From the NCBI GenBank assembly GCA_045536045.1, contig JAZSMU010000006.1:3535-67534 (forward strand): a stretch of 64,000 bases of DNA, written 5' to 3'. Below, piece by piece: positions 32,667-39,232 of this stretch. The notes under the pieces are model-generated. The model did not search any database, was not told where the DNA came from, and worked only from the letters and a program-made list of their open reading frames with translations. The translations under genes and the position numbers were made by a program. This DNA comes from Candidatus Gastranaerophilales bacterium. GTDB taxonomy: Bacteria; Cyanobacteriota; Vampirovibrionia; Gastranaerophilales; Gastranaerophilaceae. Each line of letters opens with the position of its first letter. Positions within the stretch are counted from its first letter, which is position 1.

Positions 32667-32690
32667 AAAAAAAAGAGGGCAATGCCCTCT
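32667..32690 (-). terminator. Strong rho-independent terminator ending the 209-aa gene
   Basis: On the minus strand the sequence reads aagagggcattgccctcttTTTTTTTT. Confidence 0.8.
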
Positions 32691-32694
32691 TGGA

Positions 32695-33324
32695 TTACAA
32701 ATTAAACAAACTCATTAGAACAGACTTTGTTATATCTCCTAATTCTTCCGATAAATTTGCATAAGAATTTCTTGAATTATTTGAATACGAACCATTGTTA
32801 CTCCTTGTGGTATTTCCTGAAGTGTTTTCTAAAAATTGAAGTTGATAATCATTCAAAAAATTCAAATAATCATATCTTCTATCTAGTTCCTCATCAATAA
32901 GCTCAGATTCTTTTGCCTTAATATCCTCACTCAGTGCTGCAACGGATTTTGCCCTTTTGTCTTCTAGTGAATTAAGTTTGTCTAGAAAAATTGAATTATC
33001 TAAGCTTCCAAATCTTGATGCAATATCGTTTTGTAGATTTTTAATCATTGGAGTATAGATTTCATCAATTTTTGCTATTCCACTTTTTGTGTATGCGTCA
33101 ATTTGCTCATTTAGAGAATTTAATGTTTTTTCAGAAAATACATTAATATCATCAATATTTTCTGCAAACTCTCTTTCGGCATATTCATACGCTAATTTTT
33201 CCCAAGGAGACATTGTGTAGTTGCTAGCAATATTGCCATTCTCGTCTACTACACTATGAATTTTCGGTGCTCCATTTAGGCTAATTGTTCTGCTCCATGA
33301 GTTGTTTTTGCTTGTTTTAGACAT
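32695..33324 (-). CDS. Hypothetical 209-aa protein, predicted coiled-coil with an Asn/Ser-rich tail
   Basis: A strong SD (AAAGGAGG) precedes the ATG. Heptad-like helical segments are followed by ..TSGNTTRSNNGSYSNNSRNSY... Confidence 0.7.
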   Translation of the reverse strand: MSKTSKNNSWSRTISLNGAPKIHSVVDENGNIASNYTMSPWEKLAYEYAEREFAENIDDINVFSEKTLNSLNEQIDAYTKSGIAKIDEIYTPMIKNLQNDIASRFGSLDNSIFLDKLNSLEDKRAKSVAALSEDIKAKESELIDEELDRRYDYLNFLNDYQLQFLENTSGNTTRSNNGSYSNNSRNSYANLSEELGDITKSVLMSLFNL

Positions 33325-33444
33325 TTTTCCTCCTTTTTTTATTATTAACTAGAGGCGAAATGCCAAAAATTGGTGTTGCACTTTTATATTATCAAAATTT
33401 GAGAAAAAGTATATTGGTAAAAATACCTAATTTAGCTCAAAATA

Positions 33445-35733
33445 TTATATTTTTTTAATTCCTGAAATTGTTGGGTCTAAAAGCCTTTTGCCTACTTGAG
33501 AAAATTCAATTTGCAAAAGAGTTTTATTTGAATACTCAACAACTTGAATAATTGTTCCTTGACCATATTTTTCATGAATAACTTTTTCGCCTTCAGAATA
33601 ACTTACATTGTTGTTATCTTCTGTTGTTGAATAGTCTTCAATGTAGCCGTTTGTGTATCTAATTGTTTCATCATCTAGTGGGCTATCTAGGTCAAATTGC
33701 TCAATTTCTTCTTCAGAAATTAGCTCTTCTTCTTTTACTTCGGCTATTTCTTCAATAATTTCTTCTGTTTCTTTTTCTGTTTTTTCTTCAATTTCATTTA
33801 AAATGTTAAATTCGTCTTCTTCTTTATCAAAAAGCTCTGGAGAAACATTATTTTGAGCTTCAGCTTCAACTGTTTCGTCTTTTGCTTCTTCTTCGTTTAA
33901 CATTTCATCAAATGCAATTTCAACAGATTCATTAACTAAATCTTCCATTTCAGAATCAGAAAAATCAGCTTCATTTTCTTTAACTTCTTCAACAGTTTCA
34001 TTTTTTTCAACTGTTTCAGGAGTGTCTACATTTGCATTTTCAAGATTAATTTCATCTAGAGTGTTTAAAAAGTCATCTGAAAATGTTTCTTTTTCTTCTT
34101 CAACAATTTCTTCAATTTTTTCTATTTCAGTTTTTTCTTCAACTTCTTCTTGGTTATCAAAAAAGTCTAATTCATCTTCTGAAATTATATTTTCAATATT
34201 GAAATCATCCTCAATAGTTTCAATTACAACATTTTGAGTTTGTTCGTTTTCTTGTTTCTTTTCTTCTTGAATTTCTTCAACAACTTCTCTATGAATTTCA
34301 ACAATTTCTTCCCTTGTAATTTTTTCTGGTTTAAGTTGAATTGTTGTTTGTGGGTCTGCATTTTTGTTATACAAAAAGCCATCTACAATGTTTTCAATTT
34401 CTTTTGCTTTTTGTTCTCTAAGGCTTTCAATTTTTTCTTTTACTCTTTTGTTTTTAATAACATCACCCTCAAGAGTAACTTTTGCCTCAAATTTGTCGCT
34501 ATTATCAATTTCTAATATTTCATCTTCAATTTTTATGTTTTTAACTATAAAGCCAAAATTGTTTGTGTCATCCCCAAGTAGTAAAACATTTCTTTTTGAA
34601 AGTGATGAAATAATTTCTTCAAAATATCCAAAATCCTTTTTAGGGTTGAGGCTAGGTGTTAAAATATAATTGTAGCTATTTTCGCAAACTAAAGGCATTT
34701 TGCTAAATGTATGAGAAATTGCAGGAATTAATTTGAATTGTCTTTTTGGATTAATTGCATATTTGATTAATTCTGCATCATAATTTACTTCATTTACTCT
34801 TAAGAATACGAAAGTTTCTGTTTTAATACTTTTTAAAACAAATTCAATAAATTCTTTTTGCCATAAATTTTTAATATTAGACATATCAACAACAGTGGTT
34901 CTTGATGTATTCATAATATCTAGTGCAGATTTGAAATCTGATTTTCTATTAGCAAAAATTTCATCTTGTTGATATTTGATAAGTCTGTTTTTTAGAAGCA
35001 ACAATTCTCTAATTGGAGTTACTTTAAATTGTTTTGCAATAACTTTTATGAAGTGGTTAAAAGGAATGAAACCATCTTTTGTAAGTTTTGCATAATTTTT
35101 AACTTCATTAAAAATTTCATCAACAATGGCTTGAGTTTCAACTCTTGCACCGATTAAGATTTTTTCCCAAATTCTGTCAATCACAAAGCTGTTTAATGGA
35201 AGTTTAAAATCAATTTTTGCTTTAATTTTTTGGCTCGCAGGTATTTCAATACCGCCTGTAAAATCAAAAACAACAACTTTTTTGTGAGAATTTAATCTTC
35301 TTGCTAAGTGTGTTGTTAAATAATTATATTCATTGATTTTGTCGCAGAAAATTACGGCATTATTTTCAAAGAAATTAACATTTAATTCAAAATTTCTGCA
35401 ATTTTTGGCATCTTCGCCAATTGTAATTGTTTTTTTATTTTGGTTAACAAAGTTTAAAATTTCTCTTTGGTTCGCAAATAAAACTTCTGCGTGCTTGTTT
35501 GGCAATTGTCTTGTGTATTCAACAATTTCGCCAAGAGCATTTATTGTGTGCATTAATTTAATTTTTGCAATATTTTTTTCGTGGTCAAATTTGTCGTCTG
35601 TTATTTCAACAACTTGCCCAAGATAGCACATTTTGCCATCTCTAACCAACATAAAGTCTGCCAAGCTAATGTTTTCAAACTCTGGCGTGTATAAAACTTT
35701 TATGAAATCGTTTAGTATTTGGATAATTTGCAT
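33445..35733 (-). CDS. 762-aa protein: HerA-like barrel/ATPase-shaped N-terminal region without a Walker A, polyacidic linker, UvrD/PcrA-like C-terminal Tudor motif
   Basis: The N-terminus reads ..FMLVRDGKMCYLGQVVEIT.. then ..NAVIFCDKINEYNYLTTHLARRL..KKVVVFDFTGG.., with no GxxxxGK[ST] anywhere. Residues ~470-710 are Glu/Asp-rich. The C-terminus is GEKVIHEKYGQGTIIQVVEYSNKTLLQIEFSQVGKRLL. Confidence 0.8.
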   Translation of the reverse strand: MQIIQILNDFIKVLYTPEFENISLADFMLVRDGKMCYLGQVVEITDDKFDHEKNIAKIKLMHTINALGEIVEYTRQLPNKHAEVLFANQREILNFVNQNKKTITIGEDAKNCRNFELNVNFFENNAVIFCDKINEYNYLTTHLARRLNSHKKVVVFDFTGGIEIPASQKIKAKIDFKLPLNSFVIDRIWEKILIGARVETQAIVDEIFNEVKNYAKLTKDGFIPFNHFIKVIAKQFKVTPIRELLLLKNRLIKYQQDEIFANRKSDFKSALDIMNTSRTTVVDMSNIKNLWQKEFIEFVLKSIKTETFVFLRVNEVNYDAELIKYAINPKRQFKLIPAISHTFSKMPLVCENSYNYILTPSLNPKKDFGYFEEIISSLSKRNVLLLGDDTNNFGFIVKNIKIEDEILEIDNSDKFEAKVTLEGDVIKNKRVKEKIESLREQKAKEIENIVDGFLYNKNADPQTTIQLKPEKITREEIVEIHREVVEEIQEEKKQENEQTQNVVIETIEDDFNIENIISEDELDFFDNQEEVEEKTEIEKIEEIVEEEKETFSDDFLNTLDEINLENANVDTPETVEKNETVEEVKENEADFSDSEMEDLVNESVEIAFDEMLNEEEAKDETVEAEAQNNVSPELFDKEEDEFNILNEIEEKTEKETEEIIEEIAEVKEEELISEEEIEQFDLDSPLDDETIRYTNGYIEDYSTTEDNNNVSYSEGEKVIHEKYGQGTIIQVVEYSNKTLLQIEFSQVGKRLLDPTISGIKKI
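33604..34326 (-). other. Low-complexity GAA/GAG-rich segment encoding the ~240-aa polyacidic linker of the 762-aa protein
   Basis: Seen by direct translation. It also explains the Ser/Phe-rich shadow ORFs on the plus strand. Confidence 0.85.
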
Positions 35734-35765
35734 ATGCTTTTTGAAGTCTCAACCGTAATGAGTTC

Positions 35766-35793
35766 ATTATAACAAAAGCAAAATAAATGTAAA
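35766..35793 (-). promoter_or_regulatory. Strong promoter TTTACA-16 nt-(TGt)TATAAT for the 762-aa gene
   Basis: The minus strand reads tttaca tttattttgcttttgt tataat, which includes an extended -10 TG. It lies directly after the TOPRIM gene's stop. Confidence 0.55.
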
Positions 35794-35794
35794 A

Positions 35795-36766
35795 TTATAT
35801 CTTAAGGACGCTTAATATATTTTTATTTAATTTTTCAAAACTATATGTTTTTTTGCTTGTTTCAACATATTTTTCAATTAAATGTGCAAATTCTGCTTTT
35901 TTAAAATCGCCCAAACCTCTTGTTCTATATATTTCAGATAATGATTTTGTATTTTTTTCAACAAATTCAGCTTTTTTAATTTTTTCTTTTAATTCATATT
36001 TAAAATTTTCATTCAAAGCGTCAATTATAAGCTCTAGTGGAATTATATCTTCAAATTCTCCAATTTTAATTAAGCAAAGCTTGTCTTCTTTTCTTAATTT
36101 TTCTTCTAATATTTTTTTAATTTCTTCTGCATCATTATCTAAAAGAATTTTTATTGGAAGCTTAATTTCTTCTAAAAGTTTTAAATATTTTTTCCCAACT
36201 TGGTTTTTGCCACCTGCTTGCATTACAAAAGCACCATTTTCAAAAAAATCTACATCAAGACACTTAGACAATTTTGGAAGCAAGATTTCTTCCGTTATCC
36301 CTTCTGCTAAAATAATTTCTTCAACTGGGTAAAAGCTTTGTGCTTCTTTTCTTAAAATGTTATTTTTGCTATTTTTGTTTTGGTTTTTTAAGATGAGAAA
36401 CTTAATGGCAGGATAAGTATTTTCATCTTCAATTGTTTTTAAAAGGGCATTAAAATTTATTGTATTTTTTAAATATTTTTCGCTTTCTTTATTTTGCAAA
36501 AAGCATTTTTTCTCAATATCATTAATGAAACTTTTAATATAGTTATCATCTTGCATATCGCAAGTTGAGTTATTGATAATTTTGCTTACCAATTCTATTC
36601 TATCTTCAAGAGTTAAATTTTCTTTTTCTTTGCTGTTTTCAAAAATACAATATTTATTTAAAATATCCTTAAAAACTCTTGAATATTTTTCTTCTGTTGA
36701 TTTAAATCTTAAAAGCCTTTCGGTTGATATAATAAGGTATTTAATTGGTATTTTTTTAAATTTCAT
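35795..36766 (-). CDS. Stand-alone OLD-family-type TOPRIM domain protein (no ATPase domain)
   Basis: Contains ..VEEIILAEGITEEILLPKL.. (TOPRIM Glu), ..MQAGGKNQVGKKYLKLLEEIKLPIKILLDNDAEE.. (DxD) and a helical N-terminal ~145 aa with no recognisable motif. Confidence 0.7.
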   Translation of the reverse strand: MKFKKIPIKYLIISTERLLRFKSTEEKYSRVFKDILNKYCIFENSKEKENLTLEDRIELVSKIINNSTCDMQDDNYIKSFINDIEKKCFLQNKESEKYLKNTINFNALLKTIEDENTYPAIKFLILKNQNKNSKNNILRKEAQSFYPVEEIILAEGITEEILLPKLSKCLDVDFFENGAFVMQAGGKNQVGKKYLKLLEEIKLPIKILLDNDAEEIKKILEEKLRKEDKLCLIKIGEFEDIIPLELIIDALNENFKYELKEKIKKAEFVEKNTKSLSEIYRTRGLGDFKKAEFAHLIEKYVETSKKTYSFEKLNKNILSVLKI

Positions 36767-36775
36767 ATTAAATAA

Positions 36776-36804
36776 ATTGTAAATTAAAATGAGATTTATG
36801 GCAA
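36776..36804 (-). promoter_or_regulatory. Promoter TTGCCA-17 nt-TACAAT, 9 nt upstream of the TOPRIM gene ATG
   Basis: The minus strand reads ttgcca taaatctcattttaatt tacaat ttatttaat ATG. There is no SD. Confidence 0.5.
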
Positions 36805-36848
36805 TTTTTTAACCTTTCTGGTTTTTAAATTAATAAGTAGGGAAATTT

Positions 36849-38186
36849 ATGATTAATAGCGTATCTTTAGGTAATATTTCAAATACTAAAAATACAACAC
36901 CTCTTCAAATTAAAAAGCAAGAGGCGACACCTACTTTTGGAAAATTATTCTCACTTAGAAGCTCAAAAAACATTTCAAATGTTTATCAACAAAACCCTAT
37001 TAGAACAAAGCTAACTCAAAATGAACAATATCTATATACGGAAATTGTTAAGGCTGTTTCTAATGCTCAAAATGAAGACAAAAGTGTTCATAATGAGAAA
37101 TATTCTCAAGCTCAAAAATTGAACATTCTTTTGATGAATGGAAAACTTTTAAATTCATCTTCAAATGACGGAACAACAACTTTAGAAAATTTATATAAAA
37201 TTTTATCAACAGAAAGAATTAAAGGTTTTTCAAATGTAAAACTTTTAAATCAAACAATTGACGCTATTTTTGACCCTACTATCATCACTCAAAAATTTGG
37301 AGATATCCCTACTCCTGTTAAGTCAGTTTTAAGTGCCGAACCAGCCATTGTTCAATCAACAGACACAAAATTAAAATCAATTAATGTTGATGAAGTTGGC
37401 AGTGGAACTTGTGCTGCAACAAGCATTGAATACAATATGGCAAATAAAATGCCTGCAGAATTTGCAAGATGGGCAAATGAATTATCAAGCCCTAAATTTT
37501 CTGTTTCGCAAAATGTTAAATCTTCAGCACTATCTAAAAACCCATTAGAAACTTTGGAATTATTCAAATATTTCAAATTCCAGCCAAACAAAATTAATTT
37601 TGATAGCTACAATTTTGAGCTAAGACCAGATAATAATGCAATTTTAAGAGCATATGTTCAAAATGAATACTATGATTCTGGAGAACGTTCTGTAATTGAT
37701 GTTTTAATGCAATCAACAATTATGAATATGGGCTCTCGTGGAACATATAATTCCTTAAATGACGCAAGACACTCTGATGATGTTGCAGAGGGGCTTCAAG
37801 AACATGAAAAAACATTTATGGAATCTATTATTGCAAACAAAGAAAAACTTACTCTAACATATATGACAATTGCGTCTGATAACGAAACAATTCAATCTAG
37901 AAGATGTTCAAACTCTAAAATTGAAAAACACTTAAAAGACGCATTAGCTATGGGTGAAGATGTAATTATTGGTTATAGAGATACATATCAAGGAAATGTT
38001 TTCTGGCATGAAATTACAATTTCTGGAATGAAAAAAGATAAATTAGGTAGAACAATTTTCTTATGTAATGACACAGACGACAACAAAAACCAATTGTTTG
38101 AATGGAAGGCCTCTGATTTAATTCCAAAAATTCATCATGCAACTTATCCAGCTCAACTTGTTGAAAACGAATATGCCTTAATTTAA
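36849..38186 (+). CDS. Hypothetical 445-aa protein; possible papain-like cysteine peptidase fold in the C-terminal part
   Basis: Candidate triad residues are ..VGSGTCAATSIEYN.. (Cys188), ..GNVFWHEITISG.. (His387) and ..FLCNDTDD... There is no signal peptide. Confidence 0.7.
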   Translation: MINSVSLGNISNTKNTTPLQIKKQEATPTFGKLFSLRSSKNISNVYQQNPIRTKLTQNEQYLYTEIVKAVSNAQNEDKSVHNEKYSQAQKLNILLMNGKLLNSSSNDGTTTLENLYKILSTERIKGFSNVKLLNQTIDAIFDPTIITQKFGDIPTPVKSVLSAEPAIVQSTDTKLKSINVDEVGSGTCAATSIEYNMANKMPAEFARWANELSSPKFSVSQNVKSSALSKNPLETLELFKYFKFQPNKINFDSYNFELRPDNNAILRAYVQNEYYDSGERSVIDVLMQSTIMNMGSRGTYNSLNDARHSDDVAEGLQEHEKTFMESIIANKEKLTLTYMTIASDNETIQSRRCSNSKIEKHLKDALAMGEDVIIGYRDTYQGNVFWHEITISGMKKDKLGRTIFLCNDTDDNKNQLFEWKASDLIPKIHHATYPAQLVENEYALI

Positions 38187-38220: not shown

Positions 38221-38988
38221 ATGATTATAGATTCTCATGCGCATATAGATTTTTTTGAAAATCCAGATGAAATAATTAAAAGGTCTTTTGAGGCTGGGGT
38301 TGGAAATATAATAATTCCATCATCTGACCCTCGTGATTTTTCTCGCATTATTGATATTTGCAACAGGTATCCATCAATTTATTGGACACCTGGCGTGCAC
38401 CCAACCGAAGTTGAAAACTTTAGCGAAAATACACTAAAAGAAATTGCAAAATACGTGAAAGAAGACAAAAATGTTGTTGGACTTGGCGAAATTGGGCTAG
38501 ATTATCATTATTCAAAAGAAAACAAAGAAGAGCAAATTAGAGTGTTTAAGCTTCATTTAGAGCTTGCTGAAGCTTTAGGCTTGCCTGTTGTAATTCATGA
38601 TAGAGAAGCTCATAAAGACACAATGGATATTCTTGCTTCATATAAACTTAAAAAAGTTGTTATGCATTGCTATTCTGGTTCATTAGAGCTTGCCAAAGAA
38701 GCATATAATAGGGGCTACTATTTCGGCATAGGTGGTGTTGTTACATTTAAAAACGCAAAGACATTAAAAGAAGTTGTTGAATGGCTTCCACTGAATAGAA
38801 TTATGCTTGAAACAGATTGTCCATATCTAACTCCACATCCATTTAGAGGGGAGCAAAATGAGCCATCTTATTTAAAATTTGTAATAGCCGAAATTGCAAA
38901 TTTAAAAGATTTACCAAAAGAAATTATAGAAGAAGAAACTACAAAAAATTCATTAGAGTTTTTTAATATAAAGGAGAATAATGGCTAA
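38221..38988 (+). CDS. TatD-family metal-dependent hydrolase/DNase
   Basis: Contains MIIDSHAHIDF, GEIGLDYHY, VIHDREAH and ETDCPYLTP. Confidence 0.92.
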   Translation: MIIDSHAHIDFFENPDEIIKRSFEAGVGNIIIPSSDPRDFSRIIDICNRYPSIYWTPGVHPTEVENFSENTLKEIAKYVKEDKNVVGLGEIGLDYHYSKENKEEQIRVFKLHLELAEALGLPVVIHDREAHKDTMDILASYKLKKVVMHCYSGSLELAKEAYNRGYYFGIGGVVTFKNAKTLKEVVEWLPLNRIMLETDCPYLTPHPFRGEQNEPSYLKFVIAEIANLKDLPKEIIEEETTKNSLEFFNIKENNG

Positions 38989-39232
38989 TCAATTTCCACA
39001 ACCAAATTTCAAAGTTAAAACTTCTGTTTTAGTTTTTGGCAAAGGCTGGGCAGCACCTTTGGTTCTTTATTTTGAAAATCCTGAAGAAAAATACAAAGAA
39101 CTTCAAGAGCTAATTTCAGCACCAACTACTAAAGTCGTTGAGCTTCTTGCACAAGGACCTGTTAAAAAAGTTACTTTGTCTTCTTCTCAAATTGTTGGAG
39201 TTGCACTTCAAGAGGAGCAACACATAGTTTAA
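38981..39232 (+). CDS. Hypothetical 83-aa protein
   Basis: AAGGAG lies 6 nt upstream of the ATG. The ORF overlaps the tatD-like stop by 8 nt, and its own stop overlaps the tlyA ATG (TAATG). Confidence 0.6.
   Translation: MANQFPQPNFKVKTSVLVFGKGWAAPLVLYFENPEEKYKELQELISAPTTKVVELLAQGPVKKVTLSSSQIVGVALQEEQHIV

What the first reader, a model, noticed from the sequence alone, without database searches (positions are those of the whole stretch)
32695..36766. Candidate uncharacterised module: stand-alone OLD-type TOPRIM protein, P-loop-less HerA-like/acidic/Tudor protein and a coiled-coil protein
Three co-directional minus-strand genes lie between a divergent promoter region (36767-36848) and a strong terminator (32667-32690).
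- Gene 1 (35795-36766) reads as an OLD-family TOPRIM nuclease module (AEGITEE ... LLDNDAE) but has no ATPase.
- Gene 2 (33445-35733) has a HerA-like layout without any Walker A, a ~240-aa polyacidic linker and a UvrD/PcrA-like Tudor tail.
- Gene 3 (32695-33324) is a coiled-coil protein with an Asn/Ser-rich tail.

Nuclease plus (pseudo)ATPase plus small partner is the grammar of many anti-phage systems (OLD/Gabija, PARIS, HerA-coupled systems). I do not know of any named system with this combination.

Caveats: genes 1 and 2 each appear to have their own promoter, there is no integrase or island signature, and the flanks are housekeeping genes.
Basis: partly seen in the sequence, partly recalled or inferred. 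Interest (0 to 1): 0.7.

Follow-up and report, generated by a model that had tools for sequence, protein, structure and literature searches.

The report
Three neighbouring genes, not one module
Elsewhere the nuclease gene keeps a different, unnoticed partner and the dead HerA-like gene stands alone, so this is not a three-gene defence system.

Summary
All three minus-strand ORFs exist at the stated coordinates.

- **Gene 1** (323 aa) is a stand-alone OLD-type TOPRIM nuclease with intact catalytic residues and no ATPase.
- **Gene 2** (762 aa) has three parts: a HerA-fold domain lacking Walker A (TM 0.74 to HerA 4d2i), a ~310-aa polyacidic linker, and a PcrA/UvrD Tudor domain.
- **Gene 3** is a small clade-restricted protein. 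A crude test gave no coiled-coil signal.

The module reading fails on synteny. The host is a Gastranaerophilales bacterium.
- Of 65 species genomes carrying gene 2, only the 3 closest have gene 1 within 10 kb. In those the whole housekeeping neighbourhood is collinear with the window.
- Elsewhere gene 2 lies beside tuf (EF-Tu) in 43 of 65 loci.
- Gene 1 keeps a different partner. The divergently transcribed 445-aa orphan gene at 36849-38186 is adjacent in 50 of 57 informative loci, although the outer flanks differ.
- No PADLOC system matches, and no phage or plasmid carries either whole protein.

Best reading: two independent lineage-wide units, a TOPRIM–orphan gene pair and a probably RNA polymerase- or UvrB-tethered dead HerA ring, were juxtaposed in one clade. 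Their functions are inferred, not shown.

The parts
35795..36766 (-). Gene 1: stand-alone OLD-type TOPRIM nuclease, 323 aa. Novel helical N-domain (aa 1-145), TOPRIM, and an OLD-like helical C-domain. No ATPase.
36131..36319 (-). TOPRIM core of gene 1 (aa 150-212). It holds invariant E155, E159, G185-G186-K187 and D210/D212. The invariant GEFED motif (236-240) follows.
   Evidence: Pfam PF20469; invariant columns; alignment to Xcc OLD C-terminal region
36776..36804 (-). Promoter-like site for gene 1 (TTGCCA-17-TACAAT). The A-rich AAAAATTGCC -35 region recurs in the same intergenic position in many distant lineages.
36849..38186 (+). Divergent 445-aa orphan gene ('up445'), the conserved partner of gene 1. 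Invariant C188, H387, N407-D408-T409-D410 and P426-K427-I428-H429-H430. No known family.
34543..35733 (-). Gene 2 N-terminal domain (aa 1-397): N-terminal beta-barrel plus HerA/FtsK-type core. Walker A is lost, and the Walker B Asp (D283) is kept without the catalytic Glu.
33598..34533 (-). Gene 2 polyacidic linker (aa 401-712; 35% D+E, 9% K+R). Low complexity with only weak short repeats.
33478..33591 (-). Gene 2 C-terminal PcrA/UvrD-type Tudor domain (aa 715-752).
35766..35793 (-). Promoter-like site (TTTACA-16-TG-TATAAT, 11 of 12 matches) in the gene 1-gene 2 gap. It suggests gene 2 is transcribed on its own.
32695..33324 (-). Gene 3: 209-aa soluble protein with a strong Shine-Dalgarno site and an N/S/T-rich tail. 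Found only next to gene 2 in the closest clade.
32673..32691 (-). Intrinsic-terminator-like hairpin (8-bp stem, 5 G-C pairs) plus T-run after gene 3.

Best explanation
The region is a clade-specific juxtaposition of independent, vertically inherited chromosomal genes of a gut Gastranaerophilales (Melainabacteria) bacterium. It is not a three-gene system.

**Unit A: up445 (36849-38186, +) and gene 1, a divergent gene pair.**
- Gene 1 is an ATPase-less OLD-type TOPRIM enzyme. Its acidic metal-binding residues are invariant, so it is most likely an active Mg/Mn-dependent nuclease (inferred).
- With no ATPase, it is probably controlled or targeted by its novel N-terminal domain or by up445 (inferred).
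- up445 is an orphan soluble protein. Its invariant Cys...His...Asp pattern suggests a papain-like hydrolase (inferred only).

**Unit B: gene 2, a Melainabacteria-wide single gene.**
- It has a HerA-fold domain that cannot bind or hydrolyse ATP in the usual way. This domain is probably a ring-forming scaffold (inferred).
- A ~90-930-aa polyacidic tether joins it to a PcrA/UvrD-type Tudor domain.
- In PcrA/UvrD that Tudor domain binds the RNA polymerase beta subunit, and in UvrD also UvrB (my own knowledge).
- The most likely role is therefore a transcription- or repair-associated scaffold with acidic, nucleic-acid-mimicking arms (inferred).

**Gene 3** is a young, clade-restricted neighbour of gene 2.
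For: **Gene 1 and gene 2 are rarely linked.**
- Gene 2 is present in 65 species-level genomes, all Gastranaerophilales/Melainabacteria. Gene 1 lies within 10 kb in only 3 of them. Those are the closest relatives, and their whole neighbourhood is collinear with the window.
- Elsewhere gene 2 lies next to tuf in 43 of 65 loci, with varied downstream genes.

**Gene 1 keeps up445.**
- In 57 gene 1 loci with at least 1.6 kb upstream, 50 have an up445 homologue directly upstream and divergent, usually about 100 bp away.
- The outer flanks fall into about ten different types.
- The exceptions form two clades on the gene 1 tree.
- Adjacent locus tags in SIG30 (03585 and 03590) confirm the pair, while gene 2 is on another contig.

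**Each unit looks self-contained.**
- Separate promoter-like sites, and a conserved gene 1 -35 motif across lineages.
- The gene 2 three-part architecture is kept in 234 of 250 family members. The family has 289 clusters at 50% identity with E<=1e-30.

**Nothing points to defence or mobility.**
- No PADLOC system: gene 1 hits only the TOPRIM part of GajA/Old models, and gene 2 has none. Gene 3 and up445 give only weak hits to unrelated models (E >= 0.013 and 0.06).
- No plasmid relatives. The only phage match is a TOPRIM-only hit in a Microcystis phage.
- No tRNA in the window.
Against: **Some re-association of gene 1 and gene 2.**
- Besides the window clade, gene 2 is directly upstream and divergent in L121, 3.4 kb away in L082 and 5.5 kb away in L089.
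- That is 3 of 81 loci, against under 1 expected for random placement in my rough estimate, which assumes a genome of about 2 Mb.
- Both genes seem to co-occur in the same genomes, so a functional link in trans cannot be excluded.

**Limits of the functional claims.**
- Nuclease activity, ring formation, RNA polymerase/UvrB binding and up445 chemistry are all untested inference.

**Limits of the sampling.**
- The synteny samples were found by short peptide patterns and are not a complete census.
Confidence: 0.75

Rival explanations
1. Genes 1 and 2 (with or without gene 3) form a real nuclease-plus-HerA-like system, analogous to HerA-NurA, HerA-Sir2 or HerA-DUF4297. The dead HerA ring would act as platform or sensor for the TOPRIM nuclease. 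Because both genes are fixed in the lineage they need not stay adjacent.
For: - HerA rings are known platforms for nucleases, and these complexes are the top structural matches of gene 2.
- Both genes are lineage-wide and co-occur in the same genomes.
- Proximity has arisen in at least two or three arrangements: tandem in the window clade, divergent in L121, and within 3-6 kb in L082 and L089.
Against: - Gene 1 is absent from within 10 kb of gene 2 in 62 of 65 gene 2 genomes, and gene 2 is absent from the up-to-8-kb flanks of gene 1 in 78 of 81 gene 1 loci.
- Each gene has a different, far more stable neighbour: up445 for gene 1 and tuf for gene 2.
- The two genes have separate promoter-like sites.
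- The ring lacks the ATPase motor that known HerA-effector systems depend on.
- No PADLOC match beyond the TOPRIM domain.
Confidence: 0.12
2. The region, or at least the up445-gene 1 pair, is an anti-phage or anti-plasmid defence system of a new OLD class. It would have become fixed in the chromosome of gut Melainabacteria, with up445 replacing the missing ATPase as sensor or regulator.
For: - Gene 1 shares its TOPRIM and helical C-domain with class 2 OLD/GajA nucleases.
- OLD nucleases with a separately encoded partner exist (PARIS AriA/AriB; my own knowledge).
- The pair is conserved while its flanks are shuffled.
Against: - Distribution is lineage-wide and vertical rather than patchy. No mobile-element, integrase or tRNA context, and flanks are housekeeping genes.
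- up445 matches no PADLOC, Pfam, NCBIfam or PDB family convincingly (best E about 0.002, single members only) and has no Walker A.
- No plasmid relatives, and the only phage match is to the TOPRIM part of a Microcystis phage protein.
Confidence: 0.1
3. Gene 1 is a housekeeping RNA- or DNA-processing nuclease, comparable in logic to the TOPRIM RNase M5. Gene 2 is unrelated. The up445 adjacency reflects only a shared bidirectional promoter region.
For: - Core-gene-like distribution: more than 1,900 90%-identity clusters of uniform ~320 aa length.
- A conserved promoter.
- Soluble proteins without signal or membrane segments.
Against: - The sequence and fold are specifically OLD-like, not RNase M5-like. 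Small TOPRIM proteins 2i5r and 2fcj match only at E about 0.4-0.65.
- Conservation of the pair across at least ten flank types argues for more than promoter sharing.
Confidence: 0.15

Closest known systems
OLD-family nucleases, especially the class 2 OLD C-terminal region (Xanthomonas/Burkholderia, PDB 6njv/6nk8) and Gabija GajA
   Same: - TOPRIM with the EGxxE and DxD motifs, followed by a helical domain.
- The profile and the structure model both hit these structures first.
   Different: - No N-terminal ABC ATPase (0 of 120 with Walker A).
- A novel 145-aa helical N-domain with no structural match.
- No UvrD/GajB helicase partner. The conserved neighbour is an orphan 445-aa protein.
PARIS (AriA ATPase plus AriB TOPRIM), the class 4 OLD arrangement
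   Same: A TOPRIM nuclease encoded without its own ATPase, next to a conserved partner gene (logic only; my own knowledge of PARIS).
   Different: - No AriA or AriB model matched gene 1, and none was among the four families matched by the up445 family.
- up445 has no P-loop.
- The genes are divergent rather than in an operon, and lineage-wide rather than patchy.
HerA/FtsK-type hexameric ATPases and their nuclease or effector complexes (HerA-NurA, SIR2-HerA/Nezha, DUF4297-HerA)
   Same: - An N-terminal beta-barrel plus HerA-type core fold, TM 0.74 to 4d2i.
- Profile homology across the P-loop region.
   Different: - Walker A is absent in the whole family and the Walker B catalytic Glu is lost.
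- The domain is fused to a polyacidic linker and a Tudor domain.
- There is no conserved adjacent effector gene.
C-terminal Tudor domain of the PcrA/UvrD helicases
   Same: Pfam PF21196 above its cut-off and sequence matches to the UvrD C-terminal domains 7egs and 6yi2. This includes the GxxVxHxxxGxGxI core.
   Different: No helicase core. The Tudor domain is attached to a dead HerA-like domain through a long acidic tether.
Polyacidic-tail RNA polymerase accessory proteins such as the Firmicutes delta subunit (RpoE)
   Same: A structured domain plus a long acidic tail, with a presumed link to RNA polymerase (analogy from my own knowledge).
   Different: No sequence or fold relationship was tested or expected. 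The architecture and lineage are different.

Membership tests
OLD-family nuclease (classes 1-4) | TOPRIM domain with a catalytic Glu and a DxD motif | tested here: met
   PF20469 at E 1.5e-11. E155, E159, D210 and D212 are invariant.
OLD-family nuclease (classes 1-4) | N-terminal ABC-type ATPase domain in the same polypeptide | tested here: not met
   Only the TOPRIM part of the GajA/Old models is matched. No Walker A in 120 of 120 homologues. The N-domain has no structural match.
OLD-family nuclease (classes 1-4) | Helical domain after the TOPRIM, as in the class 2 C-terminal region | tested here: met
   Foldseek hits 6njx and 6nk8, E 5e-5 to 6e-4, TM 0.52-0.59 normalised to the target.
Gabija (class 2 OLD plus GajB) | Adjacent UvrD-like helicase gene | tested here: not met
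   Gene 2 carries only the Tudor tail of UvrD/PcrA and no helicase core. No GajB model hit.
PARIS (AriA/AriB) | AriB-type TOPRIM (DUF4435) with an adjacent AriA ATPase | tested here: not met
   No Ari model hit for gene 1, and none among the four PADLOC families matched by up445 family members. No P-loop in up445.
HerA/FtsK ATPase | N-terminal beta-barrel plus HerA-type core fold | tested here: met
   AF2 model pLDDT 91.6. Foldseek 4d2i_B at E 9e-16, TM 0.74. Profile hit to 4d2i at E 1e-6. PF01935 in 5 of 18 members.
HerA/FtsK ATPase | Walker A motif GxxxxGK[ST] | tested here: not met
   HerA's GSGKS aligns to DKINEYN. No family member among 250 has the motif at that position. The single regex hit is at residue 94, outside the P-loop site.
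HerA/FtsK ATPase | Walker B hhhhDE with a catalytic Glu | tested here: inconclusive
   The predicted strand 279-283 ends in invariant D283, followed by M/L and near-invariant S285. I assigned this as Walker B by position only. No residue-level structural alignment was available.
HerA-effector systems (HerA-NurA, SIR2-HerA, DUF4297-HerA) | Effector or nuclease gene conserved next to the HerA gene | tested here: not met
   Gene 1 lies within 10 kb of gene 2 in 3 of 65 genomes. The commonest neighbour is tuf, in 43 of 65.
PcrA/UvrD Tudor domain | Sequence match to PF21196 | tested here: met
   33.2 bits against a cut-off of 23.9. Kept in 234 of 250 family members, at the extreme C-terminus in 233.
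PcrA/UvrD Tudor domain | Binding to the RNA polymerase beta subunit or to UvrB | not testable with these tools
   This would need a complex prediction or biochemistry.
Anti-phage defence system (generic) | Patchy distribution, defence-island or mobile context, match to known defence models | tested here: not met
   Lineage-wide vertical genes in housekeeping contexts. PADLOC matches only the TOPRIM domain. No plasmid relatives and only one TOPRIM-only phage match. No tRNA in the window.

The most novel reading that the evidence does not exclude
The window holds two separate undescribed systems of non-photosynthetic cyanobacteria.

(a) A fifth kind of OLD arrangement. An ATPase-less OLD-type TOPRIM nuclease with a new N-domain is paired across a shared promoter region with an orphan Cys/His/Asp protein. 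The pair is fixed throughout gut Gastranaerophilales.

(b) A catalytically dead HerA ring carrying up to six long polyacidic arms, each ending in a PcrA/UvrD Tudor domain. It would act on RNA polymerase or UvrB as a new type of transcription or repair accessory factor.

A weaker variant is that the dead ring and the nuclease cooperate in trans.
Probability: 0.3. Interest if true: 0.65.

Novelty: new variant of a known kind. Interest (0 to 1): 0.42.

Why it matters
- **Method.** Adjacency in a single genome plus a defence-like set of domains is not enough to call a system. Comparative synteny dissolved this one and showed the real conserved partner lay just outside the flagged interval.
- **Biology.** Gut Melainabacteria are uncultured, and their lineage-specific core genes are largely unknown.
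  - A family-wide pseudo-ATPase of the HerA fold, fused to an acidic tether and an RNA polymerase/UvrB-type Tudor domain, has not been described as far as I know.
  - The same holds for a conserved ATPase-less OLD TOPRIM paired with an orphan protein.
  - Either could reveal new ways of regulating a nuclease or of modulating transcription and repair.

Tried and rejected
- **Known defence system:** rejected. PADLOC matches only the TOPRIM domain.
- **up445 as the missing ATPase of a split OLD:** rejected. It has no P-loop and no hit to GajA, Old or Ari models.
- **up445 related to the gene 2 HerA-like domain:** rejected by hhalign, probability 0.1%.
- **up445 family assignment:** led nowhere. 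Pfam, NCBIfam, PADLOC, PHROGs and the PDB profile search gave no convincing match: no PHROGs family at E<=0.1 and no PDB hit at E<=10; the best hits elsewhere were single members at E about 0.002-0.005. One member hits Peptidase_C39_2 at E 0.068. The papain-like idea therefore rests only on the invariant Cys...His...Asp pattern.
- **Gene 1 N-domain fold:** no PDB or viral match.
- **Diverged gene 3 homologues near gene 2 elsewhere:** an HMM finds none.
- **Mobile origin:** the only phage or plasmid match is a TOPRIM-only hit in a 448-aa Microcystis phage protein.
- **Twinfilin hit of the gene 2 profile** (E 0.0018): judged spurious, because the structure model shows a HerA fold throughout.
- **First genome scan** with the 18-sequence alignment failed for lack of a conserved stretch. 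I repeated it with 7 closer sequences.
- **Literature tools** failed on every attempt. Comparisons with published systems rest on my own knowledge and on PDB entry titles.

Full report
**1. Observation**

All three minus-strand ORFs are at the stated coordinates: gene 1 at 35795-36766 (323 aa), gene 2 at 33445-35733 (762 aa) and gene 3 at 32695-33324 (209 aa). The region's G+C content (0.25-0.30) is close to the window average of about 0.30. There is no tRNA gene in the window.

An intrinsic-terminator-like hairpin with a T-run follows gene 3 at 32691-32673. The best promoter-like matches on the minus strand lie in the gene 1-gene 2 gap (35793-35766, TTTACA-16-TG-TATAAT) and upstream of gene 1 (36804-36776). 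The total number of promoter-like hits does not exceed shuffled expectation. Gene 3 has a strong Shine-Dalgarno sequence.

**2. Gene 1**

- Pfam gives PF20469 OLD-like_TOPRIM at E 1.5e-11 for residues 150-212.
- PADLOC matches only the TOPRIM part of the GajA/Old models, at E about 1e-9.
- A 19-member family alignment shows these invariant residues: E155, G156, T158, E159, G185-G186-K187, D210, D212, G236-E237-F238-E239-D240 and K290. There is also a conserved N-terminal motif, L18-x-R20-F21...Y28...V31...D34.
- The profile hits the class 2 OLD C-terminal region (6njv, E 2.6e-4). The EGxxE and DxD motifs align.
- The AF2 model (pLDDT 94.6, pTM 0.88) matches 6njx, 6njv and 6nk8 (E 5e-5 to 6e-4). 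Full-length OLD and GajA match more weakly.
- The first 145 residues are a helical domain with no match in the PDB or in viral structures.
- None of 120 homologues has a Walker A motif, and all are about 320 aa.

Gene 1 is therefore an ATPase-less OLD-type TOPRIM protein whose active-site residues are under constraint.

**3. Gene 2**

- The C-terminus is a PcrA/UvrD Tudor domain (PF21196, E 4.6e-8). It also matches the UvrD C-terminal domains 7egs and 6yi2.
- The N-terminal 397 residues have no Pfam hit on their own. A family profile hits HerA 4d2i at E 1e-6, and HerA's Walker A 'ATGSGKSN' is aligned to 'CDKINEYN'.
- Five of 18 family members hit PF01935, the HerA central domain.
- The AF2 model (pLDDT 91.6) has HerA structures as its top 50 Foldseek hits. 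The best is 4d2i_B at E 9e-16, TM 0.74. SIR2-HerA, DUF4297-HerA and HerA-NurA complexes are among the others.
- No family member among 250 has a P-loop at the expected position.
- The predicted Walker B strand ends in invariant D283, but the next residue is M or L, followed by near-invariant S285. This assignment is by position only.
- The linker (residues 401-712) is 35% D+E and 9% K+R.
- Across the family the three-part architecture is kept in 234 of 250 members. Median linker length is 327 aa (range 86-934) and median D+E content is 33%.
- An exhaustive profile search finds 289 clusters at 50% identity with E<=1e-30. In the 150 listed hits the match starts at or within about 25 residues of the N-terminus in all but one.

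**4. Gene 3**

Gene 3 is a real conserved protein. Homologues are 48-57% identical, 207-229 aa long and share motifs. It is found only directly downstream of gene 2, in L001/L008, L009 and L011. It has no family match. The N/S/T-rich tail is present. A crude heptad test gives no coiled-coil signal above shuffles. That test is not a proper predictor.

**5. Organism and flanks**

All named homologues come from Gastranaerophilales/Melainabacteria metagenome-assembled genomes from gut or rumen. The flanking genes are housekeeping:
- an ABC transporter, then NUDIX, on the gene 3 side;
- up445, TatD, UPF0367, TlyA/FtsJ and RecO on the gene 1 side.

**6. The synteny test**

*Gene 2.* A scan of one genome per GTDB species found gene 2 in 65 genomes. 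tblastn of the flanks (10 kb where available) finds gene 1 in only three: L008, L009 and L010. These are the closest relatives (gene 2 N-domain at least 54% identical). Where the contig is long enough (L008, L009), the whole RecO-TlyA-UPF0367-TatD-up445-gene 1-gene 2-gene 3-NUDIX-ABC block is collinear with the window; the 6.4-kb L010 holds only the TatD-up445-gene 1-gene 2 part. In the remaining loci gene 2 has tuf (EF-Tu) divergently upstream in 43 of 65, with varied downstream genes.

*Gene 1.* A metagenome scan returned 80 gene 1 loci. Adding the earlier locus L007 gives the 81 analysed here. Gene 2 lies within 8 kb in three of them, each in a different arrangement:
- L121: directly upstream and divergent;
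- L082: 3.4 kb away;
- L089: 5.5 kb away.

*The unexpected partner.* A homologue of the window's divergent 445-aa ORF (36849-38186) lies directly upstream of gene 1 in 50 of 57 loci with enough upstream sequence. The intergenic gap is usually about 100 bp.
- Clustering of neighbours shows up445 next to gene 1 in 49 of 58 loci, while the outer flanks fall into about ten types.
- On a neighbour-joining tree of gene 1 the exceptions form just two clades, and the gene 1-gene 2 tandem is confined to the window's clade.
- Named genomes agree. In SIG30, up445 and gene 1 carry adjacent locus tags while gene 2 is on another contig. In the termite Gastranaerophilus the locus tags are 0466 for up445 and 0741 for gene 2.
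- The gene 1 promoter's A-rich -35 region (AAAAATTGCC or TTTGCTA) recurs in the same intergenic position in many lineages.

**7. up445**

The family has 1,543 clusters at 90% identity, all unnamed and without Pfam domains. Invariant residues include C188 (in SGTCxAxS), H387 (in GHEIT), N407-D408-T409-D410 and P426-K427-I428-H429-H430.
- There is no convincing match in Pfam, NCBIfam or PADLOC (best E about 0.002, single members only), no PHROGs family at E<=0.1 and no PDB hit at E<=10. One member hits Peptidase_C39_2 at E 0.068.
- It has no Walker A and no hydrophobic segment.
- It is unrelated to the gene 2 HerA-like domain.

The Cys...His...Asp order and spacing suggest a papain-like hydrolase, but this is inference only.

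**8. Interpretation**

The three flagged genes are not a conserved unit. The window's clade has brought together two things.
- **A conserved divergent pair, up445 plus the ATPase-less OLD TOPRIM.** Conserved acidic residues argue for an active metal-dependent nuclease. Its control must come from something other than an intrinsic ATPase. The constant neighbour up445 and the novel N-domain are the obvious candidates (inferred).
- **A Melainabacteria-wide stand-alone gene with its local companion, gene 3.** Gene 2 encodes a dead HerA-fold domain tethered by a polyacidic arm to a Tudor domain. That Tudor domain is of the type that, in PcrA/UvrD, binds the RNA polymerase beta subunit and UvrB (my own knowledge). 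The most likely role is a ring-shaped, ATP-independent scaffold acting at RNA polymerase or nucleotide-excision complexes (inferred).

Nothing points to a mobile or defence-island origin:
- no PADLOC system;
- no plasmid relatives, and only a TOPRIM-only match in a Microcystis phage protein of different architecture;
- no tRNA in the window, and no integrase among the genes identified around the region.

**9. What remains open**

The recurrence of gene 1-gene 2 proximity in a few lineages is slightly more than chance would give: 3 of 81 loci against under 1 expected in my rough estimate, which assumes a genome of about 2 Mb. Both genes co-occur genome-wide, so cooperation in trans cannot be excluded. 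I give that about 0.12.

The literature tools failed on every attempt. The statement that these architectures are undescribed therefore rests on the absence of any family model or name in Pfam, NCBIfam, PADLOC, PHROGs, the PDB and source annotations, and on my own knowledge.

**10. Verdict**

- **Observation:** confirmed, with two corrections. The linker is about 310 aa, and the gene 3 coiled coil is not supported.
- **Interpretation:** partly supported. The domain calls are right; the module and defence reading is not.
- **Novelty:** new variants of known kinds (OLD-type TOPRIM and HerA fold) in undescribed architectures and pairings.
- **Interest:** moderate.

Noticed in passing
window 36849-38186 (+): A 445-aa orphan protein is divergently transcribed from gene 1. 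It is adjacent to gene 1 homologues in 50 of 57 informative loci although the flanks differ. It has invariant C188, H387, N407-D408-T409-D410 and PKIHH426-430 and matches no known family. It may be a papain-like hydrolase, and it looks like the true partner of the TOPRIM gene.
   Followed up: partly
window 36767-36848, and the same intergenic position in L007 and L073-L152: An A-rich motif, AAAAATTGCC or AAAATTTGCTA, recurs in the up445/gene 1 intergenic region of many distant lineages. It overlaps the -35-like hexamer of the gene 1 promoter-like site. This suggests a conserved promoter or UP-like element.
   Followed up: partly
loci L012-L072 (gene 2 homologues in other Gastranaerophilales): Outside the window's clade, gene 2 homologues sit divergently next to tuf (EF-Tu) in 43 of 65 species genomes, often with a glycosyltransferase in between. 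Gene 2 was relocated in the window's lineage.
   Followed up: partly
L121 3003-6868; L082 622-7850: In two distant metagenomic lineages a diverged gene 2 homologue (26-28% identity) lies directly upstream and divergent from gene 1 (L121) or 3.4 kb from it (L082). In L121, up445 is absent from the position it usually occupies next to gene 1.
   Followed up: partly
L003 2565-3026: In the environmental Melainabacteria genome GWF2_32_7 the gene 2 homologue still hits PF01935. It is preceded by an unannotated 153-aa gene and has a Y1 transposase and a Mg-chelatase-like ATPase nearby. There is no gene 1 or gene 3.
   Followed up: no
L153 1745-3091 (Microcystis phage MaAM05, MW495066.1): A 448-aa hypothetical protein of a cyanophage carries a TOPRIM region 32% identical to gene 1 residues 147-303. 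It is the only phage or plasmid match.
   Followed up: partly
window 38981-39232 (+): A small UPF0367-family ORF overlaps the end of TatD by 8 bp and abuts TlyA/FtsJ. The TatD-UPF0367-TlyA trio is conserved in L001, L055 and L089.
   Followed up: no
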